From the NCBI RefSeq assembly GCF_003790525.1, contig NZ_CP033635.1: a DNA stretch of 64,000 nucleotides, one strand, 5' to 3'. This DNA is from Escherichia coli. Its GTDB lineage: Bacteria > Pseudomonadota > Gammaproteobacteria > Enterobacterales > Enterobacteriaceae. The notes under the pieces are model-generated. The model saw only the letters and a program-made list of their open reading frames with translations. It was not told the origin of the DNA and made no database searches. How positions within the stretch are numbered: the stretch's first letter is position 1; each line of letters starts with the position of its first letter. Position numbers and translations under genes: made by a program. This document shows positions 3,428-35,629 of this stretch, one piece after another.

Positions 3428-3449
3428 ATTGTGTATAGCTTATGCTATA

Positions 3450-4560: not shown

Positions 4561-4900
4561 CTTGACACGTTTCTGGGCTCGTCATCAGCGGTTGTTGCGA
4601 ATGATCGCCGCCCTGCGATGGTTGATTTATTTTATTGCGCCCCGGCGTCTGCCTTGCCAGGTACCGGAGGCGGGCTCTGAAGGACTGAGTAGGGTGAGCG
4701 CGTCAGGCCGCGAAGTACTGACACGGGAGTTTGTGGCAGGCAGTGAAGTCCTGACCAGGGTAAGGGAGGCGCTGACGTGCAGGTCCTGACTGTCAGCCAG
4801 GCGCATGGTGACTGACTTTCTCAATAACCCGCTGTCAGGCGCTCAACGCCCGACAGCAGGCCATGGCCCGGTGTGCAAAGACCTGACGGCAGGTGTTGTG

Positions 4901-5221
4901 TCACCCGGAGAAGGTAAATCCCTCAAGAGGCAGCAGCTCAGCCAGTCGGTCCTCAGGCCACTCCGGCAGGCGCGTCAGTACGTCCGTCAGCCAGGCATGT
5001 GGCTCCAGACCATTACGCTTTGCTGTTTCCAGAAGACTCATTATCTGTGCCGCGCGTTTGCCGGCCATCAGCGAGCCTGCGAATAACCATGCCTTTCGCC
5101 CCAGCGTGACCGGGCGGATGGCTCGTTCGCAGATATTGTTGTCCGGTGGCACAGAGCCATCATCCAGAAAACGGCACAGCTCATCAGGTCGTTTCAGGAT
5201 ATAGCTGATAGCCTTATGCAA
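4901..5221 (-). mobile_element. IS66-family transposase C-terminal remnant
   Basis: 106-aa ORF (...ICERAIRPVTLGRKAWLFAGS...LETAKRNGLEPHAWLTDVLTRLPEW...) matches the IS66-family transposase C-terminus; the 5' part of the gene is missing. Confidence 0.7.
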
Positions 5222-5694
5222 TGGACTGTCTGGCGGACCGCCTGCTCCTGCTCTTGACGGTTTTTTGCCTTGTATATCAGGTTATAGACGAGAAGATTGT
5301 CGTCTTCGTGGTTTCCGTCAGGAAAAGAGAATGCTCAAAAGTGTATAGTAAGGCGGTCAAACGCATTCGCTGAAATAAGATGTGTCACTTCAGCTTTGCG
5401 TTAACACGACTATTTTTCATCACTCAAGCGGTAGTCCCGGTGACTCACACGTATACGAGTCACCGCTTCAGATTTGAGTATCCGAATTTAAATCAGGGAC
5501 ACAATGGAAGAAGCGAACACTTTCGCATCCTCTTCCTGCAATTCGCAGACTGTCACTCTGCGTCCAGTTCCCTCTTTCCTCAGCAGGTACCAACGCCAGG
5601 CTCCCGACAAAGGTTGACCTGAAACGACCAAATACACAGGAAACAAAATACTGTCAGACAGAACGAGGCGTGCTATACATCACGCCTCAATGCT

Positions 5695-6684
5695 TCAGTG
5701 GCTGATTTTTTTCAGCTGTTCTTCACTCAATCCCGTGATTTTCATGATGGTCTGAAGCCCCATTCCTTCAGCCAACATATTACGCGCCGTTTCCAGTTTG
5801 CCTTCCAGTTGTCCTTCGAGTCGCCCTTCGGCACGGCCTTCCATTCTGCCTTCCATTCTGCCTTCTAGCTTACCGCGCTCCATACCCTGGGCAATACCGC
5901 GCTCAAATCCCTTGACTTCCCCTTCCTGCTTCAGTTGTTCAGCCAGTGTCATTATGTTGCCCTCATGCTGTGGCAGCCGCTCCGCCAGCGTCTGCAAAAA
6001 CCTTACCGTCACATGTTCACTGCCGTTCAGCAGATAGTGGAACAGAGCCTTCGCCAGCTCTTCATTCAGTGAAGTCTGTATCAGCTGAACCAGCCTGTCC
6101 ATCTGCAGCATGATGTCGCGGCTGCGGCTGTGTTTCATCAGCAGCGTCAGTGCCCCCATTCGGCGGTGTTGCATTATCTCATCGTCATCCAGTACCGTCA
6201 CGTCCACCAGGTGGAACGGTCTGGTGTAGATTTTAGCAGCAAGTTCCGGATTTCTGAAACACTCCAGCCAGTTCATGCTGTACGGGTACGGGCTCCGCTC
6301 ACCGTGGTAGAATAACAGCGGGATCACCAGCGGCAGCTCATGGTGCTGTTCAAAGTGACGCTGCATCGCCGCCACCGCATATCTGAGCATCCTGAACGCC
6401 ATAAACGCGTTTTCCGTACTCTGGTGTTCCGCGAGGCAATAAATATACCCCTCCTCACCGCTGACGGTCTTCATGCTGAACAGCGCATCGCACGCATACT
6501 GTTTCAGATCCTGGTCCACAAAGGTACAGGGCTCCAGCCGCAGCGTCGACAGATCACACAACTGCCGGTATTCCGCCGGAAGATGCAGTTCAACAAAATC
6601 ACGGGCCACCTCTGCTGAGGCCATAAACGCCCTGAAGGCGGCATCATGCGGCGTGGGCGTATTTTTCTCTTTCCTGCTGCTCAC
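5695..6684 (-). CDS. Rpn-family recombination-promoting nuclease (YhgA-like putative transposase)
   Basis: 329-aa ORF with PDDEXK-like N-terminal region and the characteristic C-terminal EGRxEGR repeat tail of RpnA-E paralogs. Confidence 0.8.
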   Translation of the reverse strand: MSSRKEKNTPTPHDAAFRAFMASAEVARDFVELHLPAEYRQLCDLSTLRLEPCTFVDQDLKQYACDALFSMKTVSGEEGYIYCLAEHQSTENAFMAFRMLRYAVAAMQRHFEQHHELPLVIPLLFYHGERSPYPYSMNWLECFRNPELAAKIYTRPFHLVDVTVLDDDEIMQHRRMGALTLLMKHSRSRDIMLQMDRLVQLIQTSLNEELAKALFHYLLNGSEHVTVRFLQTLAERLPQHEGNIMTLAEQLKQEGEVKGFERGIAQGMERGKLEGRMEGRMEGRAEGRLEGQLEGKLETARNMLAEGMGLQTIMKITGLSEEQLKKISH

Positions 6685-6918
6685 TGTTTATCTCTTCTGA
6701 ACCAGGTAACATTAACAGAACATGTTTCAGGATATCCGCGCAGTGCGGAACATTACGGCTCACCACTGTGACGGCGGATCATCGCCACCCAGTATCCGAC
6801 AGACCCCTTACTTTGTTCGTAAACATCCTTCCTGCCCCCCTGAATCTCCAGACAACCAATATCACTTAAATAAGTGATAGTCTTAATACTAGTTTTTAGA
6901 CTAGTCATTGGAGAACAG

Positions 6919-7284
6919 ATGATTGATGTCTTAGGGCCGGAGAAACGCAGACGGCGTACCACACAGGAAAAGATCGCAATTGTTCAGCAGAGTTTTGAAC
7001 CGGGAATGACGGTCTCCCTTGTAGCCCGGCAACACGGTGTGGCAGCCAGCCAGCTATTTCTCTGGCGCAAGCAATACCAGGAGGGAAGTCTTACTGCTGT
7101 GGCCGCAGGAGAACAGGTCGTTCCTGCCTCTGAACTTGCTGCTGCCATGAAGCAGATTAAAGAACTCCAGCGCCTGCTCGGCAAAAAAACGATGGAAAAT
7201 GAACTCCTCAAAGAAGCCGTTGAATATGGACGGGCAAAAAAGTGGATAGCGCACGCGCCCTTATTGCCCGGGGATGGGGAGTAA
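6919..7284 (+). CDS. insC: IS2 transposase OrfA (InsC)
   Basis: [56 protein letters not shown]... is the IS2 OrfA sequence. Confidence 0.9.
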
Positions 7285-8147
7285 GCTTAGTCAGCCGTTG
7301 TCTCCGGGTGTCGCGTGCGCAGTTGCACGTCATTCTCAGACGAACCGATGACTGGATGGATGGCCGCCGCAGTCGTCACACTGATGATACGGATGTGCTT
7401 CTCCGTATACACCATGTTATCGGAGAGCTGCCCACGTATGGTTATCGTCGGGTATGGGCGCTGCTTCGCAGACAGGCAGAACTTGATGGTATGCCTGCGA
7501 TCAATGCCAAACGTGTTTACCGGATCATGCGCCAGAATGCGCTGTTGCTTGAGCGAAAACCTGCTGTACCGCCATCGAAACGGGCACATACAGGCAGAGT
7601 GGCTGTGAAAGAAAGTAATCAGCGATGGTGCTCTGACGGGTTCGAGTTCCGCTGTGATAACGGAGAAAAACTGCGAGTCACGTTCGCGCTGGACTGCTGT
7701 GACCGTGAGGCACTGCACTGGGCGGTCACTACGGGCGGCTTCAACAGTGAAACAGTACAGGACGTCATGCCAGGAGCGGTGGAACGCCGCTTCGGCAACG
7801 ATCTTCCGGCGTCTCCAGTAGAGTGGCTGACGGATAATGGTTCATGCTACCGGGCTAATGAAACACGGCAGTTTGCCCGGATGTTGGGGCTTGAACCGAA
7901 GAGCACGGCGGTGCGGAGTCCGGAGAGTAACGGCATAGCAGAGAGCTTCGTGAAAACGATAAAGCGTGACTACATCAGTATCATGCCTAAACCAGACGGG
8001 TTAACGGCAGCAAAGAACCTTGCAGAGGCGTTCGAGCATTATAACGAATGGCATCCGCATAGTGCACTGGGTTATCGCTCGCCACGGGAATATCTGCGGC
8101 AGCAGGCCAGTAATGGGTTAAGTGATAACAGGTGTCTGGAAATATAG
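7242..8147 (+). CDS. insD: IS2 transposase OrfB (InsD)
   Basis: 301-aa ORF with integrase-core catalytic region, overlapping orfA in the -1 frame as in IS3-family elements. Confidence 0.9.
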
Positions 8148-8199
8148 GGGCAAATCCACCTGAATCTGAGGCAGCACCTGGCACGGCTGGGACGGAAGT

Positions 8200-8441
8200 C
8201 GCTGTCGTTTTCAAAATCGGTGGAGCTGCATGACAAAGTCATCAGGCATTATCTGAACATAAAACACTATCAATAAGTTGGAGTCATTACCGTGTTCCCG
8301 ACAGACGACTCGGTGAAAAAAGTGGTGTGGCTGGCAATCCAGTCTGCGTCCCAGAAATGGACGATGCCGTTGAAGGACTGGCGAATGGCAATGAGCCGCT
8401 TTATTATCGAGTTCGGTGACCGCCTGGACGGTCACTTCTGA
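8200..8441 (+). mobile_element. IS256-family transposase 3' remnant
   Basis: Translation FPTDDSVKKVVWLAIQSASQKWTMPLKDWRMAMSRFIIEFGDRLDGHF* matches the conserved C-terminal tail of IS256-family transposases; only this tail is present, immediately right of IS2. Confidence 0.5.
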
Positions 8442-8473
8442 GAAAAGGCATTTACACAGAATCCTAAACAGGC

Positions 8474-9211
8474 TCATGTACAGCGCTGTACCGGGCAATG
8501 GGTAATACCGGTCACAACCGGTAACCCCAGAGACAATGCAACTGTTTTTAACGCAATATACTGGCCGGATGTATCACCCCGGGCAGCCTGAAAACACCTT
8601 TCCACCCGGCATTGTCCGTCAGCACTTATCACCCGCCATGTCTGTTGCAATAAATCCACCCGTTGCGAACATTCTTCATCAACCGTGGCACTGACCCGTG
8701 GATGGCAAATGCTCGTCTGGCTGAGCAGCAACAGGCATCGCATTGTTGCTCCTCCATGTTGTTCCCGCAACCAGCGTAATACCACCGGTGGTGCTGGACT
8801 GGCCGTGTGATTACGTTCAGTAATACGCTCGTGCACCTGTCGGTAAAAGGAAGTACAGAATGCATGAATCTGTTGTCCGTTGATGTTTCCTTCTGCCGAA
8901 TGGAGTGTGAAGTGGACGGCCAGCAGACGCGGCCAGTGATCCACCGCCTGCTGAATAAAACGCCGGATTTCCACCGGCTCTGAAAGTACGGTTTCGGTTA
9001 TTTGCACGATTTGATCCCCTTGAATGTTGCTGAACCGGTGTCGGTACGCAGGAAAGCACGCCGAGACCGGTACGATGCCTGTTACAGCGAAGAACGAGGA
9101 ATGACAGACGGGGGCAGCAGGTCGCCAGCACCAGGGACAGGGCTGATTTCCACAATACCAACGCTGGTATTTTGCACATTGCCAGCGTACCGGCATTACA
9201 ACACGTTTCAT
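8474..9211 (-). CDS. YagK/YfjJ-like (inovirus Gp2-like) protein, third tandem copy; possibly degenerate
   Basis: Central region (RLLAVHFTLH...NGQQIHAFCTSFYRQV...) parallels the two upstream paralogs; an internal Met at 9211 would overlap the alpA-like stop (ATGA). The N-terminal region is Cys/Trp-rich and atypical, so a frameshifted pseudogene is possible. Confidence 0.35.
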   Translation of the reverse strand: MKRVVMPVRWQCAKYQRWYCGNQPCPWCWRPAAPVCHSSFFAVTGIVPVSACFPAYRHRFSNIQGDQIVQITETVLSEPVEIRRFIQQAVDHWPRLLAVHFTLHSAEGNINGQQIHAFCTSFYRQVHERITERNHTASPAPPVVLRWLREQHGGATMRCLLLLSQTSICHPRVSATVDEECSQRVDLLQQTWRVISADGQCRVERCFQAARGDTSGQYIALKTVALSLGLPVVTGITHCPVQRCT

Positions 9212-9444
9212 GCTGCTGCCCCTCGTGATGCCTCGATTCGTTGCTGCATCCACTGCTCCACTTCACTTTTGTACCAGCGGCTGCTGCGCCCCAGTTTGAT
9301 GGGTTTAGGGAAATGGCCTTCACTGATCAGCTTGTAAAACCATTTGTCGGTCATACCAGTGAAGCTGGTGATGTAGTTCATGTCGATCAGGGGATCGTCG
9401 GCACGCAGCAATACGCTGTCGTGACCTGTCATTGAGGTCAACAT
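9208..9444 (-). CDS. AlpA-family prophage regulatory protein
   Basis: Contains ...FTGMTDKWFYKLISEGHFPKPIKLGRSSRWYKSEVEQWMQQRIEASRG, the typical AlpA-like helix-turn-helix of integrative islands. The true start is probably the internal Met at 9381. Confidence 0.7.
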   Translation of the reverse strand: MLTSMTGHDSVLLRADDPLIDMNYITSFTGMTDKWFYKLISEGHFPKPIKLGRSSRWYKSEVEQWMQQRIEASRGAAA

Positions 9445-9512
9445 GGTCAGAATGTCCTCTGTGAGATTTATGAATGTTGGGCAAATGCGGGTGAATCTGC
9501 TGAGCTGAGCTT

Positions 9513-10115
9513 TCAGAGCTGGCCTGCTACGGGATACCAGGGATTACCGGCGAGGTAACGGGCTTCCGGATCGCGCACACCACGACGATCGCGGGCGAAA
9601 TCACTGAACGCCCATATCAGCTCTTTGAGTCTCTCTTCGCAGTCCGGTGAACAACTGTCCAGCACCACATCCCGGGTTATCTGTTTCTGGTACGGTGCCG
9701 CTTCACCCGGTGAGGCGAAGCCCAGCACGTTGCTCCAGGCATCCAGAATCAGCCGATCCAGTTCAGGGCCGTCGAAATACTCCTGCCTGACGCACAGCAC
9801 CACGTGGTATTCCGGCTTTTCAGGATGACGTGTCAGGAGCCAGCAGAGGTCACGTCCGGGGGTTGCATTCATCAGGTCACTGACGGTTTCAATAAAGGCC
9901 ATACCGAACCAGGTCCTGCGGCTGCTGAAGGTATTATCGGGTTCCCACGGCAGACGAAGCAGGATACGTCGTATCCGGGAGCCGGACTGCTCACGCAGCG
10001 CACGGTCAAGAACGCCAATAACTTTGTTCTGATACGAGGGCCAGAAGGGTGCCATGCTGTCGTCGAAATAAGAGAAAGTATTCACAGGATATGCTCCGTT
10101 ATGCGCAGCCCACAA
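9513..10115 (-). CDS. YagK/YfjJ-family (inovirus Gp2-like) protein
   Basis: 200-aa ORF paralogous to 10418..11149; the only in-frame start before an upstream stop is a TTG. Confidence 0.5.
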   Translation of the reverse strand: MWAAHNGAYPVNTFSYFDDSMAPFWPSYQNKVIGVLDRALREQSGSRIRRILLRLPWEPDNTFSSRRTWFGMAFIETVSDLMNATPGRDLCWLLTRHPEKPEYHVVLCVRQEYFDGPELDRLILDAWSNVLGFASPGEAAPYQKQITRDVVLDSCSPDCEERLKELIWAFSDFARDRRGVRDPEARYLAGNPWYPVAGQL

Positions 10116-10417
10116 CGCGTCCTGCCCGGGGATGGATGGGCTGACGGGTTACAGGCTGCGGATGAGGTTGATGGAACAGGTGAAGAACCGACGCTGAGCG
10201 GGAATATCAGGGAAGAACATTCAGGGTGAATGAACTCCGTTGACTTCGGTTCACATCATTAAGCAGGGCGGTAAGGTTTTACCGACAGATTGTTTCCGGG
10301 TGCGGAAGCAGATACCGCTGCTGACTTCATGACGGGTTATCAGAATACGGGATAAGGGCATTGGCTGACTCTCTTACCGTGGCATAAGTTCAGGTACCGG
10401 ATACCGTTTTACCGACC

Positions 10418-11149
10418 TCACCTGCCATCCAGCAAACGCCCCGGCCCACGGCTGCAACCATAATTACGCTGACCGGAACCATTATGCTGCTTCGTTTTAT
10501 TTTTCACGAGATAACTGGCTCTGTTCCTGGCTTTCTGCATCGCTGCCACATCACCACGCTTGATCCAGAGAACAGCGGCTTCACCCGGCTTTTTTTCTGA
10601 AGCCTTCCTGGTATCAGAACATCCACCCGACAAAGGCGTGTCATCGGAAGAAGGGCGAGCATCAGACGATGCTGGTTTACGAAAAGGCTTCCACCTGGAA
10701 AAATGGACCAGGCCATCGCCTTGCCAGGGCTCAAGATGCAGAGCGCTGCACCATGCCTCCTGGATCATCGCCGCCAGCGAAGACGGTTCGCTGAAATCCC
10801 CGAGCGAGCACCAGGTATCTTTGTTGAGCAGCAATATCACGTGATAATGTTTCCTGTTTTCTTCCTCTCCGAACTCCCGGCACCAGAAATAACGCAGGCT
10901 GGTTGCATGCACACGCTGACTGGCACGTCGCTTATGCTGCTGGTAAGCCTGGATTTTGGCTTTCAGGGATTCGAAAAAACGAGAAATCACCGCTGAATCC
11001 GGATCGGGATCCATGATGGTGACAGGCATATACTCAGGGAAACGTAAATCCACCCGGATTAACGAGACGGCACGGTGCTGCGACAGGGCACTGTCGAGAA
11101 GGCTGTCAAAACGGGATAACCAGTAAGCATTGTGTATTGGTTGATTCAT
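10418..11149 (-). CDS. YagK/YfjJ-family (inovirus Gp2-like) protein
   Basis: 243-aa ORF with N-terminal ...AVSLIRVDLRFPEYM... motif recalled from CP4-57 YfjJ / CP4-6 YagK. Confidence 0.55.
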   Translation of the reverse strand: MNQPIHNAYWLSRFDSLLDSALSQHRAVSLIRVDLRFPEYMPVTIMDPDPDSAVISRFFESLKAKIQAYQQHKRRASQRVHATSLRYFWCREFGEEENRKHYHVILLLNKDTWCSLGDFSEPSSLAAMIQEAWCSALHLEPWQGDGLVHFSRWKPFRKPASSDARPSSDDTPLSGGCSDTRKASEKKPGEAAVLWIKRGDVAAMQKARNRASYLVKNKTKQHNGSGQRNYGCSRGPGRLLDGR

Positions 11150-11209
11150 GATGAGAGATCTCCGTTGATTTGGATTGACTTCACATCATTAATCACCGCG
11201 GTAAAACTT

Positions 11210-12720
11210 TACGGCATCATGTCATTAAGCAATGCTACAACTCTCTGATTAAGAGTGATTGAAACGGAACAAACCATCCCGGAACGAAAAGATAATCCTG
11301 CACACAGCAGCAAAACACGCAACAACAGCATGAATGGATTTAAAAACGACATGGACGACGAGAAAAGCCTGAAGGGAAAAGGATCCACAGAACATTCGAA
11401 CAAAACACCAGAAACGCAACCAGAACGCTTCCTGGCAATGCAAATCAACAACAACACCAAAACCTACAGCTTAATCACACAACTCAATCACGAATGCGAA
11501 TGACACGTTTAAAACCTGTTTACAGATAACGTCGTAACAAGATCATCCCCATCAGAATCGATTTTCTTATCTTGAGTATGTTACTTTTCAACATACCTAA
11601 ACGATTAACCACCGATAACGTAAATCTCATCTGAATCAAAACACCAAAACCAATCATCACGTTTTCGACAGAAGAAAAACACCACATCATGACAAAAAGA
11701 ATGACCTTACACGGAAAAGAAAAACGTCAGGAATCGTTAATGCATACCTCAATCTGATTGTTATCAAAACATCCAGAAAGTCGTTTAACAGAATCGTCGT
11801 AAGCACATCGAAAAGAACGTCAGATCACCTCAGGAAAGTTCGGGTTGATTTAGCGTAAAGATACTTTTCTCAGCTTAACGTCGAAACACAAACCAAAAAC
11901 CACAAACAACCAAAGCTCAGGAAAGGTTAAACGTCACATCAGTAAAATCGAATAGCAGATTGATTGCTTAAACAGGAAGGATTGTTTTACAGCAGCATTA
12001 AACTGATTTAGTTAACGTAAAATCAGAACTGACAGGTTTACTAACTTGGATGTGTATCAGTTCAAAAATGTGTACAGCAATGCGTAATGAAACACATTTA
12101 AAGGAGATTAATGGGAAAAGTGTGTAAATGCGTAAACATGCACTAATGAATCACTGAAGGAATACATACAAAACGACTTAATGAAAACATAAAAGGACCT
12201 AATGGAAAAGGTGTATATAATACCATATCCGACATTCTCAACATCTTAAGACATCCATGCAGACTGAATGTTGGTTTCAGTTTTTCACGGTAAGCATGAA
12301 TCTTTTCTGTTCAAAAGCAGAGCAGATTTACTCTGGAATTATTTTTCTTACTCCGTATTCTGTACAGCAAAAACTTGTGCTAACTTTACAGCAAACCATC
12401 ATAATCAGCGTCTGTAGTCCCATCGCTTTACCCCATGAAAGTGAATCCATATGATGCGAGAGAGATAAGTCATCGTATCCGGTAAACACTGCTAACCATA
12501 ACATAAGATCATTCAGTCAGTTTTATCTCTGAACTGACGATTATGGCATGCTCATTTATATGGCTCACAGAGGAGTGTTATTATCTGTAAGCTTTAATCA
12601 TCAAATCACATGACCATACCAAACTGGCGCTATATCAGCTCATTTGACACCCCTTCCCTTTAGATTTCTTTATGTGTTTTTTGTCGATAATTAAAATGTA
12701 ATATGAATTTAATATTTTTA
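11210..12720 (+). other. ~1.5 kb non-coding, strand-asymmetric A-rich tract
   Basis: No ORF of 60 aa or more between 11503 and 12257 in any frame; hand counts on sampled 60-nt blocks give roughly 38-45% A versus 12-23% T on the + strand. Confidence 0.6.
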
Positions 12721-12722
12721 CA

Positions 12723-13946
12723 TCATAAACACCATTTAAAACCATTATCCTGAACATCATACAACAATATATTTTTACTAAAGCATGAATTGTATATTTC
12801 TATTAATTCAGGAAAATTATCAGGATTCACCTTTAAATTCACCTGAATGTTACGCCTAATTTCACCCAGCAGTTTTTCATGCGTGAATTTTATTATTTCT
12901 TTATCATAATCTATAAATTCACACATGTTTTTTATGAATTCAAACCCTTTTCCTGTATACAGTTTGATGAATGCCACAAGAGCAAACATTTCAAGATGCA
13001 GCCATAATGCCACGTGAGTTTTTCGCAAAGTATAAAAAATTGAATTCACCTCTTTTTTACTTATTGCTCTTTTGTACTGTGAGTGTGCCAGATTCAGTAG
13101 TGGCAATTCTCTCTCGATAAATGAAAGTGAAAAAGGCGGGTAAATTGATGTCGGAAATATTTTAGGTCTTATGATATTTTCTATTTCCACCATAAATCTA
13201 TCCATAGAAAGAAAATCATTTTCTTTTTTTATTCTGGTATAGAGACCGCCTTTATTTCTTACTGCGACTTTTTTTCGTGCTACCCCCCCCAACACTTCCT
13301 CTAATTGTTTATTTATCTTCGTATCATTAAATACAACCATTCTTCTTATCATCCTGGGAAGGATGATAATATCAGAGCTTGAATCACTTGAACGGTAATT
13401 ATTATTGATCCATGCAACTTCAAGTTGAAGTATCGGAACATTAAATTCTCTGGGGTTAATAACTCTCTGATATTGTTTTTTGTATGCGTTTTTATTAAGA
13501 TATTCTCTGCTGTAGAGAAACTTATAGCAATATAATCTGACAATATCCTTTATGTAAGATTTAAATGAGTCACCTGTAACAGATATATTTTTTCTGCTCA
13601 GTAACTCCTGTGTATTGAGCCATTCCCGTGACCGGAGTACTCCCTTATGAAGACTTTTTCTTACTTGCATTGAACTGCGCAATTGATGTAATATTTTTGC
13701 GTCCTCAACAATTCTCTTTCCCGTTTGATTTCTTGCAGCATCTATTACTCTGTCAAATATCTCCCGGTCCAGACTTTTGTCATATTTACTGATTATACGA
13801 CAAATATTCCTGACCCGACGGTTCTCTTTATTTCGTTTCCATAACTGATAATGATCATCACATAACCTCAGGGCATTTGCCTCATCAAATTCTGAAACAG
13901 GATTGCTGCATTTTTTATTCCGACAGATACCTTTGTTTTTAGCCAT
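12723..13946 (-). CDS. hypothetical protein, 407 aa, very low GC, N-terminal Cys/His cluster
   Basis: Long uninterrupted ORF in a region of roughly 30% GC (hand count on sampled blocks); K/N/I-rich; N-terminus GICRNKKCSNP...LCDDHY suggests a zinc-ribbon-like motif. No family recognised. Confidence 0.6.
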   Translation of the reverse strand: MAKNKGICRNKKCSNPVSEFDEANALRLCDDHYQLWKRNKENRRVRNICRIISKYDKSLDREIFDRVIDAARNQTGKRIVEDAKILHQLRSSMQVRKSLHKGVLRSREWLNTQELLSRKNISVTGDSFKSYIKDIVRLYCYKFLYSREYLNKNAYKKQYQRVINPREFNVPILQLEVAWINNNYRSSDSSSDIIILPRMIRRMVVFNDTKINKQLEEVLGGVARKKVAVRNKGGLYTRIKKENDFLSMDRFMVEIENIIRPKIFPTSIYPPFSLSFIERELPLLNLAHSQYKRAISKKEVNSIFYTLRKTHVALWLHLEMFALVAFIKLYTGKGFEFIKNMCEFIDYDKEIIKFTHEKLLGEIRRNIQVNLKVNPDNFPELIEIYNSCFSKNILLYDVQDNGFKWCL

Positions 13947-14000
13947 ACTCTTCTTCCCGTCAATGGAAAATTTTTCACGTCCATATTACCTGACTGAGAG

Positions 14001-14046: not shown

Positions 14047-14931
14047 ATGTCATTCAGCCATTCTTCCCTTTCCGCACACGTAAAATCACATCTGACCTTT
14101 CTTCCTGAAGAAATACGCCAGAAAATCCTTGAATATCTTCACAGCGTCATTCAGTACGAACCCGTGATTGGCATTATGGGTAAATCCGGTGCCGGAAAAA
14201 GCAGCCTGTGCAATGCCATTTTTCAGTCCCGTGTCTGCGCCACGCATCCACTGAACGGCTGCACCCGTCAGGCTCATCGTCTTACCTTTCAGCCTGGTGA
14301 ACGCAGAATGACGCTCGTCGATCTGCCCGGCACTGGCGAAACACCACAGCATGATCAGGAATACCGGGCACTTTACCGTCAGTTACTGCCCGAACTGGAT
14401 CTGATTATCTGGATCCTGCGTGCTGATGAACGTGCGTATGCTGCCGACATCGCCATGCATCAGTTTTTACTGAATGAAGGTGCCGATCCCTCGCGTTTTC
14501 TGTTTGTTCTCAGCCATGCTGATCGCATCCACCCGGCTGAAGAATGGAACAGCCAGAGCAACACGCCATCCCGTCAGCAGGAACTCTCACTGGCAACAGT
14601 AACAGCCCGGGTGGCAACCCTGTTCCCTTCATCATTTCCGGTACTCCCCATAGCTGCCCCTGCAGGCTGGAATCTTCCGGCATTTGTGTCACTGATGATC
14701 CACGCCCTGCCACCACAGGCAACCAGCACGGTTTATTCGCATATCCGGAATGAAAAGCGCACTGCGCAGGATCAGCAACACGCACAGCAGGCTTTTGGTG
14801 ACGCCATCGGCCAGAGCTTTGACGCGGCCATTGCCCGGTTCAGCTTTCCGGCCTGGATGCTGCAGCTTCTGCGTAAAGCCCGTGATCGCATTATCCGCCT
14901 GCTGGTCACACTGTGGGATCGCCTGTTCTGA
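14047..14931 (+). CDS. YeeP/YfjP/YkfA-family GTPase (50S ribosome-binding GTPase domain)
   Basis: 294-aa ORF with P-loop GIMGKSGAGKSS and overall resemblance to K-12 prophage GTPases YfjP/YeeP. Confidence 0.85.
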   Translation: MSFSHSSLSAHVKSHLTFLPEEIRQKILEYLHSVIQYEPVIGIMGKSGAGKSSLCNAIFQSRVCATHPLNGCTRQAHRLTFQPGERRMTLVDLPGTGETPQHDQEYRALYRQLLPELDLIIWILRADERAYAADIAMHQFLLNEGADPSRFLFVLSHADRIHPAEEWNSQSNTPSRQQELSLATVTARVATLFPSSFPVLPIAAPAGWNLPAFVSLMIHALPPQATSTVYSHIRNEKRTAQDQQHAQQAFGDAIGQSFDAAIARFSFPAWMLQLLRKARDRIIRLLVTLWDRLF

Positions 14932-15116
14932 ATTTCCCCGCTTTTTGACCGGCACAGACGATGACCAGGGAACGCATTTCCGGCGGCTTTACCACAATGC
15001 TGAAGGGCTTTTGGTAAACCTCATTCATTTCATCCATCAGGCAGCGTCTTCTCCGGGAGATGCGGCTTTTTCATTGATTACGTCAGTCAGTCTTAACCAC
15101 TGATAAGGAGCAAAGT

Positions 15117-15935
15117 ATGCGATTAGCCAGTCGTTTTGGTTATGCGAACCAGATACGCCGTGACCGTCCGCTGACACATGAAGAGCTGATGCACCATGTG
15201 CCCGGGATTTTCGGGGAGGATAAGCACACCTCCCGGAGCCGGAACTATACATACATCCCCACCATCACCGTGCTGGAAAGCCTGCAACGGGAAGGCTTTC
15301 AGCCGTTCTTTGCCTGCCAGACCCGCGTGCGTGACCCGGGACGCCGGGGATACACAAAGCACATGCTGCGTCTGCGCCGTGACGGGGAGATAAACGGACA
15401 GCATGTCCCTGAAATCATCCTGCTCAACTCCCATGACGGCACCTCCAGCTACCAGATGCTGCCGGGTTACTTCCGGTTCGTGTGTCAGAACGGATGTGTC
15501 TGTGGTCAGTCTCTCGGAGAGGTGCGTGTCCCGCACCGGGGAGACGTGGTGGACAGGGTCATTGAAGGGGCTTACGAGGTGGTGGGCGTGTTTGACCGGA
15601 TAGAGGAAAAGCGTGATGCCATGCAGTCACTGATTTTACCACCACCGGCTCGTCAGGCGCTGGCACAGGCCGCCCTGACTTACCGTTATGGTGACGAACA
15701 TCAGCCCGTCACCACCGCCGACATTCTGACACCACGACGCCGGGAGGATTACGGTCAGGACCTGTGGAGTGCTTATCAGACCATCCAGGAGAATATGCTG
15801 AAAGGCGGGATTTCCGGTCGCAGTGCAAAAGGAAAACGTATCCATACCCGGGCCATTCACAGCATTGATACCGATATAAAACTCAACCGCGCATTGTGGG
15901 TGATGGCAGAAACGCTGCTGGAGAGCATGCGCTGA
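15117..15935 (+). CDS. DUF932 protein (YfjQ-like)
   Basis: 272-aa ORF closely resembling CP4-57 YfjQ (MRLASRFG...YTYIPTI...FFACQ.RVRD...). Confidence 0.85.
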   Translation: MRLASRFGYANQIRRDRPLTHEELMHHVPGIFGEDKHTSRSRNYTYIPTITVLESLQREGFQPFFACQTRVRDPGRRGYTKHMLRLRRDGEINGQHVPEIILLNSHDGTSSYQMLPGYFRFVCQNGCVCGQSLGEVRVPHRGDVVDRVIEGAYEVVGVFDRIEEKRDAMQSLILPPPARQALAQAALTYRYGDEHQPVTTADILTPRRREDYGQDLWSAYQTIQENMLKGGISGRSAKGKRIHTRAIHSIDTDIKLNRALWVMAETLLESMR

Positions 15936-16016
15936 TGCCGTTTCCCTGAGTGAGGGAATCATTCAGCTTTCGTTCCTGAAAAACACACATTTATTTGTTA
16001 TTTAAGGAGTTATCTC

Positions 16017-16457
16017 ATGAAAACCGTTTCTCAGAATACCCCCACAATTTATTCAGCTACAACACCAGAGAATAATCCGCCTCAGTTGGTTGCCAGCCTC
16101 GTCCCTGATGAACAGCGCATCAGCTTCTGGCCGCAGCATTTTGGCCTCATTCCACAGTGGGTGACCCTGGAGCCCCGTGTCTTCGGCTGGATGGACCGTC
16201 TGTGCGAAGACTACTGCGGTGGTATCTGGAATCTGTACACCCTGAACAACGGCGGCGCATTTATGGCCCCCGAACCGGATGATGATGATGACGAAACATG
16301 GGTACTGTTCAATGCCATGAACGGTAACCGCGCTGAAATGAGCCCGGAAGCCGCCGGCATTGCTGCCTGTCTGATGACGTACAGTCATCATGCCTGTCGT
16401 ACGGAGTGTTATGCCATGACGGTTCATTATTACCGTCTGCGGGATTACGCCCTGTAG
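16017..16457 (+). CDS. antirestriction protein (YfjX/KlcA/ArdB-like)
   Basis: 146-aa ORF with the conserved FWPQHFGLIPQW...GWMDRLCEDYCGGIW motif block. Confidence 0.8.
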   Translation: MKTVSQNTPTIYSATTPENNPPQLVASLVPDEQRISFWPQHFGLIPQWVTLEPRVFGWMDRLCEDYCGGIWNLYTLNNGGAFMAPEPDDDDDETWVLFNAMNGNRAEMSPEAAGIAACLMTYSHHACRTECYAMTVHYYRLRDYAL

Positions 16458-16511
16458 CATCCGGAATGCAGCGCCATTATGCGCATCATTGACTGAAAGG
16501 GGGCCGGAACA

Positions 16512-16988
16512 ATGCAACAGATTTCCTTTCTGCCCGGAGAAATGACAACCAGAGAGCGCAGCCTCATTCAGCGGGCCCTGAAAGCCCTGGACCGCCATCT
16601 TCATGAACCCGGCGTGGCCTTCACCTCCACCCGTGCGGCACGGGAATGGCTGATTCTGAACATGGCGGGACTGGAGCGGGAAGAGTTCCGGGTGCTGTAC
16701 CTGAACAACCAGAATCAGCTGATTGCCGGTGAAACCCTCTTCACCGGCACCATCAACCGCACGGAAGTCCATCCCCGGGAGGTGGTTAAACGCGCCCTGT
16801 ACCACAATGCCGCTGCCGTGGTGCTGGCACACAATCATCCGTCCGGTGAAGTCACACCCGGTAAGGCAGACCGGCTTATCACTGAACGTCTGGTACAGGC
16901 ACTGGCCCTGGTGGATATCCGGGTGCCGGACCATCTGATAATCGGTGGCAGCCGGGTGTTCTCCTTTGCCGAACACGGTCTGCTTTAA
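16512..16988 (+). CDS. RadC-like JAB-domain protein (YeeS/YfjY/YkfG-like)
   Basis: 158-aa ORF with JAMM motif HNHPSG...; typical island position after the antirestriction gene. Confidence 0.85.
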   Translation: MQQISFLPGEMTTRERSLIQRALKALDRHLHEPGVAFTSTRAAREWLILNMAGLEREEFRVLYLNNQNQLIAGETLFTGTINRTEVHPREVVKRALYHNAAAVVLAHNHPSGEVTPGKADRLITERLVQALALVDIRVPDHLIIGGSRVFSFAEHGLL

Positions 16989-17077
16989 TCCGTCACCGTC
17001 ACAACCACCTTCATATTGTCACTTCAGTTTCTCTTTCTCAGCTGTTTCTCACTTTCACATTCAGGAGGACTGTTCTC

Positions 17078-17299
17078 ATGAAAATCGTCACCCGTGGTGA
17101 AGCCATGCGCGTTCACCGTCAGTATCCGTCATCCCGTCTTTTTCCGTTCTGCACCGGTAAGTACCGCTGGCACGGCGGCACTGAGGCGTATACCGGTCGT
17201 GAAGTGCAGGATATCCCCGGCGTACTGGCCGTGTTTGCCGAACGCCGCAAGGACAGTTTTGGCCCGTATGTCCGGCTGATGAGCGTCACCCTGAACTGA
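17078..17299 (+). CDS. DUF987 protein (YeeT/YkfH-like)
   Basis: 73-aa ORF MKIVTRGEAMRVHRQ...; size and position match DUF987 genes of CP4-type islands. Confidence 0.7.
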   Translation: MKIVTRGEAMRVHRQYPSSRLFPFCTGKYRWHGGTEAYTGREVQDIPGVLAVFAERRKDSFGPYVRLMSVTLN

Positions 17300-17303
17300 G
17301 TCA

Positions 17304-17960
17304 GTGGAGATGCTGATGAGCAGCATTATCACCACCACCGTGTATACGCTGAATGAACTTTCCGCCACAGCACGGGAAAAAGCCCGCGGCTGGTACCGTC
17401 AGCATCATGCTGACAGCCGCTGGTATGAAAACGTGTATGAGGACTTCAGGGCGGTCTGTGAGATTGTCGGGATTGTCCTCCGCCAGCGTGTTATCCGGCT
17501 CAGCAGCGGCAGGTTTATGGAAGAGCCGTGCATCTGGTTCAGCGGATTCTGCAGCCAGGGGGACGGAGCCTGTTTTGAAGGGCGCTGGCACTGGCAGCCG
17601 GCAACAGCCAGGCGAGTCCGGGAATATGCCCCGCAGGACCGTGAGCTTCATCGTATCACGGATGCCCTGCAGGCGGTGCAGAAGCATAACTTCCGGCAGT
17701 TACAGGCTGAAATCCGTCACCGGGGACGCTACTGCCATCCGTACAGCATGGATATCACCGTCACCCGGGACAGCCCGACCGGACAGGCAATGACAGCCGG
17801 CGCGGAAACCGTTGTCTGTGACGCCCTGCGGGACCTGGCCTTCTGGTTATACAGTCAACTGGAAAACGAGTACGACTGGCTGACCTCAGATGACGCCGTG
17901 GATGAGGCGCTTCTCATCAACGGATACACCTTCACCGAAGCCGGTCTGCGCGCCGGCTGA
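17304..17960 (+). CDS. hypothetical protein, 218 aa, unrecognised family
   Basis: ORF starts 5 nt after the DUF987 stop and lies between DUF987 and the CbeA-like antitoxin; Cys/Trp/His-rich (CIWFSGFCSQGDGACFEGRWHW). Confidence 0.5.
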   Translation: MEMLMSSIITTTVYTLNELSATAREKARGWYRQHHADSRWYENVYEDFRAVCEIVGIVLRQRVIRLSSGRFMEEPCIWFSGFCSQGDGACFEGRWHWQPATARRVREYAPQDRELHRITDALQAVQKHNFRQLQAEIRHRGRYCHPYSMDITVTRDSPTGQAMTAGAETVVCDALRDLAFWLYSQLENEYDWLTSDDAVDEALLINGYTFTEAGLRAG

Positions 17961-18010
17961 CCCGTCATTGTTAAAACCATTCTTAACCGATTATCAGTGA
18001 GGACTTTATC

Positions 18011-18388
18011 ATGTCAGACACACTCACCGGGACAACGCATCCCGACGACAACAGCGACCGCCCCTGGTGGGGGCTGCCCTGCACCGTGACGCCCTGTTTC
18101 GGTGCCCGTCTGGTGCAGGAGGGTAACCGCCTGCATTACCTTGCAGACCGCGCCGGCATCAGAGGCCGGTTCAGCGACGCAGATGCGTACCACCCGGACC
18201 AGGCCTTTCCGCTGCTGATGAAACAGCTGGAACTCATGCTCACCAGTGGTGAACTCAGTCCCCGCCATCAGCATACCGTCACACTGTATGCGAAAGGGCT
18301 GACCTGCGAAGCCGACACCCTCGGCAGTTGTGGTTACGTGTATATCGCCATTTATCCGACACCGGCAACACCCGGAACCACCGCATAA
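18011..18388 (+). CDS. cbeA: CbeA/YeeU-family type IV antitoxin
   Basis: [52 protein letters not shown]... is near-identical to YeeU/CbeA as recalled. Confidence 0.85.
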
Positions 18389-18434
18389 CCCCGGACAGCA
18401 CTTCTTTATCACCACCTGTTACAGAGTACTTAAG

Positions 18435-18809
18435 ATGAAAACATTCCCCGACACACATGTACGGGCAACATCGCGCTGCCCGTCTCCGGTTGAAATCTGG
18501 CAGACACTGCTCACCCGGTTGCTGGACCAGCACTACGGCCTCACGCTGAATGACACACCGTTCGCCGATGAACGTGTGATTGAACAGCATATTGAGGCAG
18601 GTATTTCACTGTGTGATGCGGTGAACTTTCTCGTGGAAAAATACGCACTGGTGCGTACCGACCAGCCGGGATTCAGTGCCTGCACCCGCTCTCAGTTAAT
18701 CAACAGCATTGATATCCTCCGGGCCCGCCGGGCAACCGGCCTGATGACCCGCAGCCACTACCGAATGGTGAGCAACATCACCCTGGGTAAACACTGTGAG
18801 GTGAAATGA
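18435..18809 (+). CDS. cbtA: CbtA/YeeV-family type IV toxin
   Basis: ...[65 protein letters not shown]... matches CbtA/YeeV. Start set at the ATG at 18435 rather than the longer ORF-track start. Confidence 0.85.
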
Positions 18810-19297
18810 TGAAACTGTCCCTGACGCTGGAAGCAGACAGCGTTAACGTCCGGGCACTGAACATGGGGCGCATTGTCGCTGACGTCGATGGTGTTAATCT
18901 CGCTGAACTGATTAACGTGGTCTGCGATAACGGCTGTTCCCTTCGTGTTGTTGATGAATCTGACCGGACCTCAGCAGACTGCATGCCACCATTTACTGCC
19001 CTTACCGGCATACGCTGCAGTACCGCACATATCACGGAACAGGACAATGCCTGGCTGTACTCGCTGTCGCATCAGACGAATGACAACGGCGAATCAGAAT
19101 GGATTCATTTTACAGGCAGCGGATATCTGTTACGTACTGATGCGTGGTCGTACCCGGCTCTGCGGCTTAAACGCCTGGGGCTGTCAAAAACCTTCCGCCG
19201 TCTGGTTGTCACACTTATCCGGCGTTATGGCGTCAGTCTCATTCATCTGGATGCCGGCGCTGAATGTCTGCCGGGTTTACCCACTTTCGACTGGTAA
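18806..19297 (+). CDS. YeeW-like protein (DUF5983)
   Basis: 163-aa ORF overlapping the cbtA stop, in the position occupied by yeeW in CP4-44. Confidence 0.65.
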
Positions 19298-19316
19298 CCG
19301 GGACAAAAGACACCGT

Positions 19317-19514
19317 ATGAAATCATTAACCACAGAAACGGCACCGGATATTCTGATTGCGTGGCTGCAGGACAATATCGACTGCGGCTCCGGCATTATC
19401 TTCGACAACGATGAGGATAAAACGGATTCGGCAGCACTGCTGCCCTGTATCGAACAGGCCAGAGCGGATATCCGCACCCTGCGCCACCTGCAGCTTCAGC
19501 ACCAGAACCGGTGA
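19317..19514 (+). CDS. DUF957 small protein
   Basis: 65-aa ORF MKSLTTETAPDILIAWLQDNIDCGSGIIFDNDEDKTD..., recalled as the DUF957 family of island ends. Confidence 0.55.
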   Translation: MKSLTTETAPDILIAWLQDNIDCGSGIIFDNDEDKTDSAALLPCIEQARADIRTLRHLQLQHQNR

Positions 19515-19609
19515 GTCTCACTCATCATCTCACTCACCACGATTCATTCCCCTGACGCCAGTCCGAATACGGCTGGCGTTTTCATTTATAAACCACAAGG
19601 AAAAATGTA

Positions 19610-20458
19610 ATGTCTGATATCACAATCCCTTATCCGGAAGCGGTCAACGGACATACGGACGTTATCTGCTCCACAGATATCCGGCACGTTGTGACGGTAC
19701 GGAATGAAGCACTGCAACAAACCGAAAGGGTTATCCGGCAACTGGCAGAAATCTCAGCAATGACAGAAAGCATAGGCGGTAAAACGGCGCGGGACTGGGC
19801 CGTGAAACAGGATTTTCGCTGTGGCTGCTGGCTGATGGAAAAACCGGAAACCGCAATGAAAGCCATCACCCGGAACCTTGACCGTGAAATCTGGCGTGAC
19901 CTGATGCAACGCTCCGGGATGCTGAGTCTGATGGATGCACAGGCGCGTGATGAATGGTACCGTTCACAGGAGGACGATAATTTCCCGGAAATCAGCGAAG
20001 CGAATATCCTGAGCACGTCTGAACAACTGCACCGTAACAGGGATGAAATGGCTGAACGGGGCGTCATCAACCTCTTCAGGGGACTGAGCCGGACGCAAAA
20101 CAGCGGGTCACCCTGTAAATTCGGCAGCAAGATTATCCTCAACAACCTGGTGAAATGGGACTGGTGGGGATTTGGTCTGAACCATGGCCCGCAGGCCGGG
20201 CGGCTTGCCGACCTGGAAAGAATGTTGTATCTGTTCAGTGGTAAACCCATACCCGATTACAGGGACAATATCCTCATTCGTCTGGATGAGCACATCCGGT
20301 CCGTTCAGGGTGAAGCGTGTTATGAAGATGAGATGTTCAGCATCAGATACTTCAGGAAAGGCTCTGCGCATATCACGTTTAAACACCCGGAACTGGTGGA
20401 GAAGCTGAATGCTGTTCTGGCGAAACATTATTCGGTAAAGTTCCATTCTTCTGTATAA
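19610..20458 (+). CDS. hypothetical protein, 282 aa (possibly DUF4942-like)
   Basis: Long ORF with a good SD (AAGGAAAA); family assignment from memory is uncertain. Last gene before the core genome. Confidence 0.5.
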   Translation: MSDITIPYPEAVNGHTDVICSTDIRHVVTVRNEALQQTERVIRQLAEISAMTESIGGKTARDWAVKQDFRCGCWLMEKPETAMKAITRNLDREIWRDLMQRSGMLSLMDAQARDEWYRSQEDDNFPEISEANILSTSEQLHRNRDEMAERGVINLFRGLSRTQNSGSPCKFGSKIILNNLVKWDWWGFGLNHGPQAGRLADLERMLYLFSGKPIPDYRDNILIRLDEHIRSVQGEACYEDEMFSIRYFRKGSAHITFKHPELVEKLNAVLAKHYSVKFHSSV

Positions 20459-20661
20459 ACTTACAGATCACGGGTATTGTGTCTCGTCCTGAACAGGGCC
20501 GACAGGTATACTGCATTCGCTGAGCCATTACAGATAATGCCTCAACTGAGTTCAATCTACCTCCATGTACAACAACAATACGATGGGGGCTACATTGGGG
20601 GCTATACTTTCAAGTAAAACTGATATAACCAAGATTAAACAATAAGATAGAGAATTTTCAC

Positions 20662-20716
20662 CATTCCCCTCTGGGGAGAGGATTAGGGTGAGGGGCGCAA
20701 ACCCGCTCCGGGGCCA
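20662..20716 (+). repeat. GC-rich palindromic repeat-like element upstream of glnP
   Basis: CCATTCCCCTCTGGGGAGAGGATTAGGGTGAGGGGCGCAAACCCGCTCCGGGGCC contains nested inverted repeats resembling E. coli intergenic palindromic units. Confidence 0.3.
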
Positions 20717-34613: not shown

Positions 34614-34751
34614 TATTGTGGCATTTTTCGGTTTTCAGGGGTAATGGTTTTTCTGTTTCTGGAAAGCGGCTCGCAATAACGTTTTCTGGCTGTGGGGTTT
34701 TCTCGCAACAGAAGAAACATCATTGCGTAGTAAAAGACAATGCACGCAGGC

Positions 34752-35033
34752 TTATTGCGCTGGTGGCCATTGCAGGGCGGTATGTAAAACACGCAGTACC
34801 GAGAGCGTATCGCCCTCCACTTGGTAGATCAGCACATAATGCGGCCTGACAACGGCTTCATGTGTACCAGCGACTCGTCCGGCCCGGTACATCTCCGGGC
34901 GTTCACAGGCCTGTTCCGCAATGGCTTCAAATTGATTATCAAGGGCTATTGCCGCTAGCGGATTATCTTTACTGATGTATTCCATGATTTGCTCCCTGTC
35001 AGACAGGGACATTGGCTTCCATTCCAGACGCAT
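34752..35033 (-). CDS. RelE/ParE-family type II toxin
   Basis: 93-aa ORF with the ParE-like pattern (...RPHYVLIYQVEGDTLSVLRVLHTA...). Confidence 0.7.
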   Translation of the reverse strand: MRLEWKPMSLSDREQIMEYISKDNPLAAIALDNQFEAIAEQACERPEMYRAGRVAGTHEAVVRPHYVLIYQVEGDTLSVLRVLHTALQWPPAQ

Positions 35034-35473: not shown

Positions 35474-35629
35474 AATGCGCTAACCTCTTTGTATACGGCA
35501 TGCAATTTATAATTAAAGATAGCGCAATTAATAATAAATTGCAGCACCTTAATCGTAAATTGCCCAGGATAAAATTGCGGTAGAAAGAGATTTGTTGCGA
35601 ATATGCCGGGCATCGCCCGGCATAAAAGA

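What the first reader, a model, noticed from the sequence alone, without database searches (positions are those of the whole stretch)
19610..20458. 282-aa terminal island ORF of uncertain family next to the core junction
The last island gene before glnP is a well-formed ORF with a good SD. My DUF4942 assignment is tentative. Genes at island termini are frequently cargo such as methyltransferases or defence-associated proteins.
Basis: inference. Interest (0 to 1): 0.35.

Follow-up and report, generated by a model that had tools for sequence, protein, structure and literature searches.

The report
YdiA-type DUF4942 island backbone gene

Summary
The 282-aa ORF at 19610-20458 (+) is real. The tentative DUF4942 call is correct: PF13708, E=4e-59, 199.9 bits against a cut-off of 25. 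It is the last gene of the island, 206 nt before the island/core junction at about 20664/20665.

It is backbone, not cargo. It closes a conserved co-oriented module: GTPase, DUF932, antirestriction, RadC, DUF987, CbeA/CbtA, DUF5983, DUF957, DUF4942. 64% of complete E. coli genomes carry a copy.

The methylase label comes from rare relatives that fuse DUF4942 to a small C-terminal N6-adenine methyltransferase. This protein has no such domain and no such motifs. It has no defence-system hit and no solved structural relative.

The most likely role is an early establishment or anti-restriction accessory that engages DNA. This is inferred, not shown.

This rare allele (22 genomes) has replaced the family's signature SW[D/N]YKTN motif, and 7 of 16 sister copies are pseudogenes, so it may be decaying.

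Verdict: ordinary and already catalogued. Interest is low.

The parts
19610..20458 (+). [not shown]
19868..20431 (+). Pfam PF13708 DUF4942 domain (residues 87-274). In the model it comprises a helical part plus a C-terminal alpha/beta part.
   Evidence: model pLDDT 88.8
19610..19867 (+). N-terminal ~86 residues not covered by Pfam but conserved across the family (S21, R31; long helix 24-54)
20087..20107 (+). Codons 160-166. The family signature S-W-(D/N)-Y-K-T-N is replaced by S-R-T-Q-N-S-G. The DNA is compatible with a short, frame-restored frameshift patch.
19597..19601 (+). Shine-Dalgarno AAGGA, 8 nt upstream of the ATG
   Evidence: read directly
19554..19580 (+). G+C-rich hairpin followed by a T run, between the DUF957 gene and this ORF (terminator-like). 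The stem is kept in other alleles: T.G becomes C-G or T-A.
14047..19514 (+). Co-oriented upstream backbone module: GTPase 14047-14931, DUF932 15117-15935, Antirestrict 16017-16457, RadC 16512-16988, DUF987 17078-17299, unknown 218-aa ORF 17304-17960, CbeA 18011-18388, CbtA (within 18330-18809), DUF5983 18806-19297, DUF957-annotated small ORF 19317-19514
   Evidence: annotation of the near-identical genome
20459..20664 (+). Non-coding right terminus of the island. It contains a tandem TAC(G/A)(A/T)TGGGGGC motif at 20579-20602. It is found in only 90 of 5426 E. coli genomes and in no plasmid.
20665..20695 (.). Start of core DNA: the palindrome TCCCCTCTGGGGAGAGG plus ATTAGGGTGAGGGG of the glnH-glnP intergenic repeat. 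The island abuts its left arm.

Best explanation

Shown: it is the terminal gene of a conserved island backbone module, all on one strand. The module's families (DUF932, KlcA-type antirestriction, RadC/JAB, DUF5983, DUF4942) are the same ones that conjugative plasmids place in their leading region, the DNA that enters a recipient first. In plasmids the DUF4942 gene reads towards oriT and is often the ORF nearest to it.

Inferred: the protein acts early, when the element arrives in a new host, as an establishment or counter-restriction accessory.

Most likely mechanism (inferred): DUF4942 is a conserved, non-catalytic substrate-engaging module. In rare relatives it sits N-terminal to a minimal N6-adenine methyltransferase domain that has no target-recognition domain of its own. 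Those fusions occupy the same leading-region slot. There, DUF4942 presumably brings the methylase to incoming DNA. On its own it would bind the same partner without methylating it, either incoming DNA or a host factor acting on that DNA. Binding would use the conserved polar cluster (D91, W95, D201, R204, H254, N267 and the SW[D/N]YKTN loop).

In this window the allele belongs to a rare lineage in which that loop has been overwritten and whose sister copies are often broken. Its activity may therefore be altered or lost.
For: Identity:
- Pfam PF13708 at E=4e-59.
- 1913 and 2822 homologues in the two large protein searches.
- RefSeq annotates it as a DUF4942 domain-containing protein in the near-identical genome.

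Backbone status:
- The module is confirmed in the window.
- The same order recurs at other loci and in other islands.
- 3464 of 5426 complete E. coli genomes carry a copy, with a median of 2.

Leading-region link:
- tblastn hits at least 5000 plasmids, 4542 of the 5000 kept being conjugative.
- In IncI/K/Z, IncL/M, IncFII(K), Xylella and Cereibacter plasmids the gene is co-oriented with ssb, psiB, ardA, antirestriction, RadC/JAB or DUF932. It points to nikA/mobA/mobC-relaxase, 0.65-6.5 kb away.

Fusion evidence:
- Relatives of 460-543 aa have DUF4942 followed by a small domain with LEPSAGxG and NPPF motifs and MTS/N6_Mtase hits.
- One such fusion lies beside DUF932 in a plasmid leading region.
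- phrog_6263 'DNA methyltransferase' matches at E=2e-16.

Conservation and selection:
- Strict conservation argues for a fixed partner rather than a variable sequence-specific recognition domain.
- dN/dS is 0.17-0.22 within the allele lineage, so there is or recently was purifying selection.
Against: - No experiment on any DUF4942 protein was found.
- The role is inferred from position and fusion partners only.
- The protein is neither strongly basic nor strongly acidic (pI 6.3), so neither DNA binding nor DNA mimicry is evident from composition.
- Not all leading-region genes are induced on plasmid entry (PMC12672017).
- No oriT or relaxase was identified in this island, and the island terminus has no plasmid match.
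- This allele lacks the signature motif and carries F137S, P275S and L278F at near-invariant positions.
- 7 of the 16 listed sister copies are split.
Confidence: 0.55

Rival explanations
1. This copy is a decaying relic. The gene is still open but no longer does anything useful, because the family's key motif was destroyed by a frame-restored frameshift and selection is relaxing.
For: - The window protein is the only one of 108 aligned sequences with R161, Q163, N164 and G166 in the SW[D/N]YKTN motif. It also has S137, S275 and F278 at positions conserved in more than 90% of sequences.
- The patch shares CAAAAC with canonical alleles in a different frame.
- Sister copies carry a frameshift or an in-frame stop; 7 of 16 listed are split.
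- dN/dS is about twice that of canonical alleles, 0.21 against 0.11.
- The allele lineage is in only 22 of 5426 genomes.
Against: - dN/dS of 0.17-0.22 within the lineage is still well below 1.
- The four strictly invariant residues (W95, D201, H254, N267) are kept.
- The ORF, its SD and the upstream hairpin are intact.
- The model folds confidently apart from the altered loop.
Confidence: 0.3
2. It is a DNA methyltransferase or restriction methylase, as some database names say, modifying island or host DNA.
For: - Some sources name homologues 'restriction methylase'.
- phrog_6263 'DNA methyltransferase' matches.
- Phage genes containing the domain are annotated as methylases.
Against: - The match to methylases covers only their non-catalytic N-terminal part (profile positions 79-281 of 548).
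- The catalytic domain, with LEPSAGxG and NPPF, lies C-terminal to DUF4942 in the fusions.
- The window protein ends 8 residues after the DUF4942 domain. It has no PP dipeptide and no MTase Pfam hit.
- Nothing MTase-like is encoded downstream.
Confidence: 0.02
3. It is a defence or abortive-infection cargo gene carried at the island tip.
For: Island ends often carry defence genes (general knowledge). A toxin-antitoxin pair lies just upstream.
Against: - No PADLOC hit.
- Its position in a backbone module is invariant whatever the cargo.
- The family is concentrated in conjugative plasmids in T-strand orientation next to oriT, among anti-restriction genes. That is the signature of counter-defence, not defence.
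Confidence: 0.05
4. It is a DNA-processing accessory of the element itself, for example a relaxosome/oriT factor or an excision-integration factor. This would explain why it always sits at the element end or next to oriT.
For: - It is adjacent to oriT/nikA in IncI-type plasmids.
- It is the last gene before the island end.
- In a 41-kb circular island-like record, the DUF4942 gene reads across about 465 bp into the integrase gene.
Against: - In IncL/M, IncFII(K), Xylella and Cereibacter plasmids it is 3.7-6.5 kb from the relaxase genes, with other leading genes in between.
- It accompanies unrelated relaxases, integrases and att sites.
- It also occurs fused to methylases in phages, which have no oriT.
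Confidence: 0.08

Closest known systems
[not shown]
   Same: Same Pfam domain and same ~270-290 aa stand-alone architecture with the N-terminal extension. The gene is co-oriented with antirestriction, RadC/JAB, DUF932 and DUF5983 genes and sits at the end of the block.
   Different: Only 32-36% identical to the plasmid proteins. It is chromosomal, in an island with no recognised oriT or relaxase. The signature motif is replaced in this allele.
L0010 (LEE-flanking element of O157:H7), orf56 of the Shigella SRL island, Aec79, 'restriction methylase' of SpLE1
   Same: Orthologous island backbone gene, ~65-80% identical, following YeeW(DUF5983)-DUF957.
   Different: Those islands are typically at tRNA genes and may have further genes after it (L0011, L0012). 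Here it is the last gene, and the island abuts a short palindrome in the glnH-glnP spacer.
DUF4942-N6-adenine methyltransferase fusion proteins of phages and plasmids (phrog_6263; phiPSA1 gp22; Aeromonas phage 4_D05 gp31; Cereibacter p3)
   Same: The N-terminal ~280 residues are homologous over the whole length of the window protein.
   Different: They carry an extra 180-270 aa catalytic domain with LEPSAGxG and NPPF motifs, which the window protein lacks entirely.
KlcA/ArdB-type antirestriction proteins (PF03230)
   Same: Encoded in the same module and the same plasmid regions, on the same strand. This is the functional class I think it most likely works alongside.
   Different: No sequence or fold similarity was detected. 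No anti-restriction activity has been shown for DUF4942.

Membership tests
DUF4942 (Pfam PF13708) | Score above Pfam's gathering cut-off over the full domain | tested here: met
   199.9 bits against a cut-off of 25; profile positions 1-188 of 190, residues 87-274
DUF4942 (Pfam PF13708) | Strictly invariant residues of a 108-sequence diverse alignment (W95, D201, H254, N267) | tested here: met
   All four present
DUF4942 (Pfam PF13708) | Signature loop S-W-(D/N)-Y-K-T-N (each position conserved in 83-94% of sequences) | tested here: not met
   The window has S-R-T-Q-N-S-G. R161, Q163, N164 and G166 are each unique among the 108 aligned sequences; S165 occurs in 16 of them. The replacement is shared by the whole rare allele lineage.
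YdiA-type stand-alone architecture | ~260-290 aa: a conserved ~85-aa N-terminal helix region plus DUF4942, and nothing else | tested here: met
   282 aa; S21 and R31 conserved; most of the 150 best representatives are 250-300 aa
Plasmid leading-region gene set | Co-orientation with antirestriction, RadC/JAB, DUF932 and DUF5983 genes, at the distal end of the block | tested here: met
   Window module compared with plasmids and published positions
Plasmid leading-region gene set | An oriT and relaxase next to the block, and early expression from the transferred strand | tested here: inconclusive
   No relaxase lies in the island part of the window as annotated in the near-identical genome. The terminus has no plasmid match. 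No sigma-70-like promoter was found. Expression cannot be tested here.
N6-adenine DNA methyltransferase (gamma-type, as in the fused relatives) | SAM-binding motif I (e.g. LEPxxGxG) and catalytic motif IV (D/N/S)PP(Y/F/W) | tested here: not met
   Neither motif is in the 282-aa sequence (no 'PP' anywhere). No MTase Pfam family hit. No remnant downstream.
Known anti-phage defence systems (PADLOC-DB) | Match to any defence-protein model | tested here: not met
   0 families at E up to 1
Known antirestriction families (ArdA, KlcA/ArdB) | Sequence or fold similarity | tested here: not met
   No Pfam hit to those families. No PDB fold match. Samuel et al. also list no hit to anti-restriction sets.

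The most novel reading that the evidence does not exclude
DUF4942 is a new-fold establishment or anti-restriction effector. It is the DNA- or host-factor-engaging half of a family of orphan methylases that usually works alone. The right arm of these E. coli islands (DUF932 to DUF4942) would then be a functional leading region, with the gene nearest the island end entering a new host first. That would imply these 'pathogenicity islands' are still mobilised by conjugation.
Probability: 0.25. Interest if true: 0.6.

Novelty: already known. Interest (0 to 1): 0.25.

Why it matters
For this window it matters little. The gene is a catalogued, widespread backbone gene, and this copy may be decaying.

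The family is more interesting than the copy:
- It is present in about two thirds of E. coli genomes.
- It is present in thousands of conjugative resistance plasmids, at or near the first position to enter a recipient.
- It has no solved structural relative and no tested function.

If it proves to be an establishment or counter-defence factor, it would be a candidate target for blocking plasmid spread. It would also argue that the conserved right arm of E. coli islands is a conjugation-type leading region.

Tried and rejected
- NCBIfam: no model matched.
- PADLOC: no defence model matched.
- PDB by sequence, with the single protein and with a 108-sequence profile: only chance hits, zinc fingers at E of 0.3 or worse and augmin at E 0.97.
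- First structure model from a shallow alignment was poor (pLDDT 58). The second, from a diverse alignment, was good (88.8).
- The AlphaFold-database library was not available.
- A Pfam scan of all 108 family members at E up to 1 found no recurrent second domain.
- A weak PHROG hit to a Gp5.5-like H-NS inhibitor (E=0.066) was disregarded.
- A search for a methylase remnant downstream of the ORF found nothing.
- The promoter scan found no sigma-70-like site.
- The island terminus has no similarity to any plasmid, so there is no evidence for a plasmid-type oriT.
- I considered a sequence-specific target-recognition domain and think it unlikely, because the domain is too uniformly conserved.
- I tried to find the island's cognate left end. 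In three genomes the other flank was proL, ompC or a leuX-region remnant, so the chromosomes are rearranged and the question stayed open.

Full report
**Observation**

The ORF exists as described: ATG at 19610, TAA ending at 20458, + strand, 282 aa. An AAGGA Shine-Dalgarno sequence lies 8 nt upstream of the ATG. A 10-bp G+C-rich hairpin followed by a T run (19554-19580) separates it from the preceding small gene. Other alleles keep the stem, changing a T.G pair to C-G or T-A. No sigma-70-like promoter was found nearby.

**Identity**

Pfam gives DUF4942 (PF13708) at E=4e-59, 199.9 bits against a cut-off of 25, over residues 87-274. NCBIfam and PADLOC return nothing. PHROGs returns an unknown-function family, and at E=2e-16 a 548-position 'DNA methyltransferase' family of which only positions 79-281 are matched.

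The window belongs to E. coli. An identical ORF occurs in strain CM2, and near-identical DNA in two other genomes, where RefSeq calls it a 'DUF4942 domain-containing protein'.

**Island context**

The island part of the window carries a run of genes, all on the + strand:
- GTPase
- DUF932
- Antirestrict (KlcA type)
- RadC
- DUF987
- an unknown 218-aa protein
- CbeA antitoxin and CbtA toxin
- DUF5983
- a small ORF annotated DUF957 in the near-identical genome
- this gene

The same order, ending in DUF4942, recurs in islands with different cargo and at different chromosomal sites. The Shigella SRL island has the same arrangement (PMC6980539). ORF-level homologues are present in 3464 of 5426 complete E. 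coli genomes, with a median of 2 copies and up to 8. The gene is therefore backbone, not cargo.

Homology to the core chromosome starts at about 20665, in the glnH-glnP spacer. That is 206 nt after the stop codon and 101 nt before the glnP ATG.

**The wider family**

An exhaustive profile search found 2822 clusters at E of 1e-3 or better. Most are stand-alone proteins of 250-300 aa that align over nearly the whole query, including the ~85-residue N-terminal region that Pfam does not cover.

tblastn against plasmids reached the 5000-record limit, and 4542 of those 5000 are conjugative. I opened seven plasmids: IncK2/Z, IncI-gamma/K1 (two), IncL/M pOXA-48-like, IncFII(K), Xylella pXF51 and Cereibacter p3. 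In each, the gene lies in the leading region. It is on the same strand as ssb, psiB, ardA, antirestriction, RadC/JAB or DUF932 genes, and it reads towards nikA/mobA/mobC-relaxase. In IncI-type plasmids it is only about 0.65 kb from nikA.

**Why it is called a methylase, and why it is not one**

About 3% of the best 150 representatives are 460-468 aa. In these, DUF4942 is followed by a ~180-aa domain with LEPSAGxG and NPPF motifs. That domain has weak MTS/Methyltransf_11 hits and a weak M.TaqI match.

Phage versions are 531-543 aa with the same domain order, and only 48 phage records have any hit. In the Cereibacter plasmid a 487-aa fusion sits beside DUF932 in the leading region, the same slot as the stand-alone forms.

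The window protein stops 8 residues after the DUF4942 domain and contains neither motif. Nothing methylase-like is encoded downstream.

**Structure**

With a diverse 108-sequence alignment, AlphaFold2 gave a confident model (pLDDT 88.8, pTM 0.82). It has a long N-terminal helix, a helical bundle, and a C-terminal beta-beta-beta-alpha / alpha-beta-beta-beta-alpha domain.

It has no meaningful solved relative:
- The best Foldseek E against the PDB is 0.12.
- Sequence profiles find nothing in the PDB.

In the viral structure set the only significant matches are other DUF4942 proteins. The best is a 531-aa viral protein labelled 'Type I restriction enzyme' (E=8e-8), and the next three are uncharacterised proteins of 247-308 aa.

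**Mechanism (inferred)**

The fused catalytic domain is too small to hold a recognition domain, so DUF4942 most plausibly engages the substrate for it. DUF4942 is uniformly and strongly conserved: W95, D201, H254 and N267 are invariant, and D91, R204 and the SW[D/N]YKTN loop are above 83%. That is unlike sequence-specific recognition domains, so I favour a fixed partner. The partner would be incoming DNA in a non-sequence-specific way, or a conserved host factor.

The stand-alone majority would then act without methylation, as an early establishment or counter-restriction accessory. This fits its company and position, but nobody has tested it. The protein's pI of 6.3 gives no help.

**This particular allele**

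Only 22 genomes carry an allele at least 90% identical; the common alleles are about 80-83% identical. The whole rare lineage has SRT(Q/H)NS(G/R) where the family has SW(D/N)YKTN. The window protein alone among the 108 aligned sequences has S137, S275 and F278 at near-invariant positions.

At the DNA level, 14 of 21 bases in the patch differ. The shared CAAAAC hexamer is read in another frame in canonical alleles, whose +2 frame gives ..ELQN... This is compatible with a short frameshift that was later restored, but it does not prove one.

Sister copies are broken by a frameshift in strain 23CRST013, or by an in-frame TAA in GF60 and in strain 135. Of the 16 closest records, 7 are annotated as two pieces.

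Against this, dN/dS within the lineage is 0.17-0.22, compared with 0.11 between two canonical alleles and 0.23-0.29 between lineages. Selection has therefore not simply vanished. I put about 0.3 on this copy being functionally dead.

**Comparison and verdict**

The gene is a member of a known, named, published but uncharacterised family. It meets the family's HMM, architecture, invariant-residue and context tests, and fails only the signature-loop test. It fails every test for being a methyltransferase or a known defence protein.

It is already known, and ordinary for an E. coli island. The residual interest belongs to the family, not to this locus.

**Side observations at the junction**

The 206-nt island terminus occurs in only 90 genomes and in no plasmid. 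Wherever I looked it abuts a short G/C palindrome:
- TCCCCTCTGGGGAGAGG of a repeat in the glnH-glnP spacer.
- An almost identical repeat upstream of fabI.
- CTCCCCG(C/G)CGGGGAG at the ulaD/ulaE boundary, in both orientations.

The opposite flanks in three genomes are proL, ompC and a leuX-region remnant, so large rearrangements are involved and I could not decide between targeted insertion and recombination.

A 41-kb circular record deposited as a non-mobilisable plasmid looks like an excised island. Its DUF4942 gene reads across about 465 bp into a tyrosine integrase gene. It also carries a coupling-protein-like gene and an ssb gene.

Noticed in passing
window 20459-20700; L005 3645-3760; L006/L007 3648-3830; L022 2627-2870: The island's 206-nt right terminus always abuts a short G/C palindrome. 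At the glnH-glnP spacer and upstream of fabI this is TCCCCTCTGGGGAGAGG (a repeated intergenic element). At the ulaD/ulaE boundary it is CTCCCCG(C/G)CGGGGAG, in both orientations. This suggests palindrome-targeted insertion or recombination at these repeats. The terminus is in only 90 of 5426 genomes.
   Followed up: partly
L016 38578-40105; L023 1-603; L024 47000-50000: In genomes with the island-glnP or island-ulaD junction, the other side of the island region is not glnH or ulaE. It is tRNA-Pro (proL) plus an integrase next to yejM, or ompC, or idnO/yjgR fragments plus integrases. This implies large inversions or deletions with breakpoints in the islands. For glnP against proL/ompC, the breakpoints are roughly symmetric about the terminus, judged from my memory of K-12 map positions, not from a tool result.
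   Followed up: partly
L025 / L026 (CP088535.1, 41,067 bp circular): A record deposited as a non-mobilisable plasmid looks like an excised circular island. It carries the DUF932-to-DUF4942 module. The DUF4942 stop is about 465 bp, across the record origin, from a co-oriented tyrosine integrase gene. It also has a 'TraM recognition domain' (coupling-protein-like) gene and an ssb gene.
   Followed up: partly
window 19554-19580: Terminator-like hairpin between the DUF957 gene and the DUF4942 gene (centroid -17.6 kcal/mol; whole 98-nt stretch z=-2.35). The stem is preserved in other alleles by changes from T.G to C-G or T-A. The DUF4942 gene may therefore be transcriptionally insulated from the operon upstream.
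   Followed up: partly
window 17304-17960: A 218-aa ORF inside the module has no Pfam hit. It is annotated either 'hypothetical' or 'antitoxin of toxin-antitoxin stability system' in other genomes, and is frameshifted in several of them.
   Followed up: no
window 18806-19297: The DUF5983 (YeeW/Aec77-type) gene two genes upstream also belongs to a published leading-region family (family 72, median position 2 from oriT). The pair DUF5983 then DUF4942 keeps the same order relative to the element end as in plasmids.
   Followed up: partly
window about 34750-35475 (from L001 35453-36174): In the near-identical genome a RelE/StbE-type toxin gene and an adjacent hypothetical gene are annotated between dinG and rhlE in the core region. 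hcxB is annotated as frameshifted (L001 30917-32001). Taken from annotation only.
   Followed up: no
L015 1261-5571: A distant stand-alone DUF4942 gene (P0128) lies just upstream of TnsA-like and Mu-transposase-C-like genes. This suggests the family also rides on Tn7-like transposons.
   Followed up: no
window 1-14000 (L001 700-14700): The island part upstream is a mosaic of IS fragments (ISL3, IS1, IS256), a frameshifted YadA-like adhesin, a frameshifted ProQ/FinO gene and an inovirus Gp2-family gene. Further left, outside the window, the same strain carries tellurite-resistance genes and an S6 (SPATE) protease.
   Followed up: no
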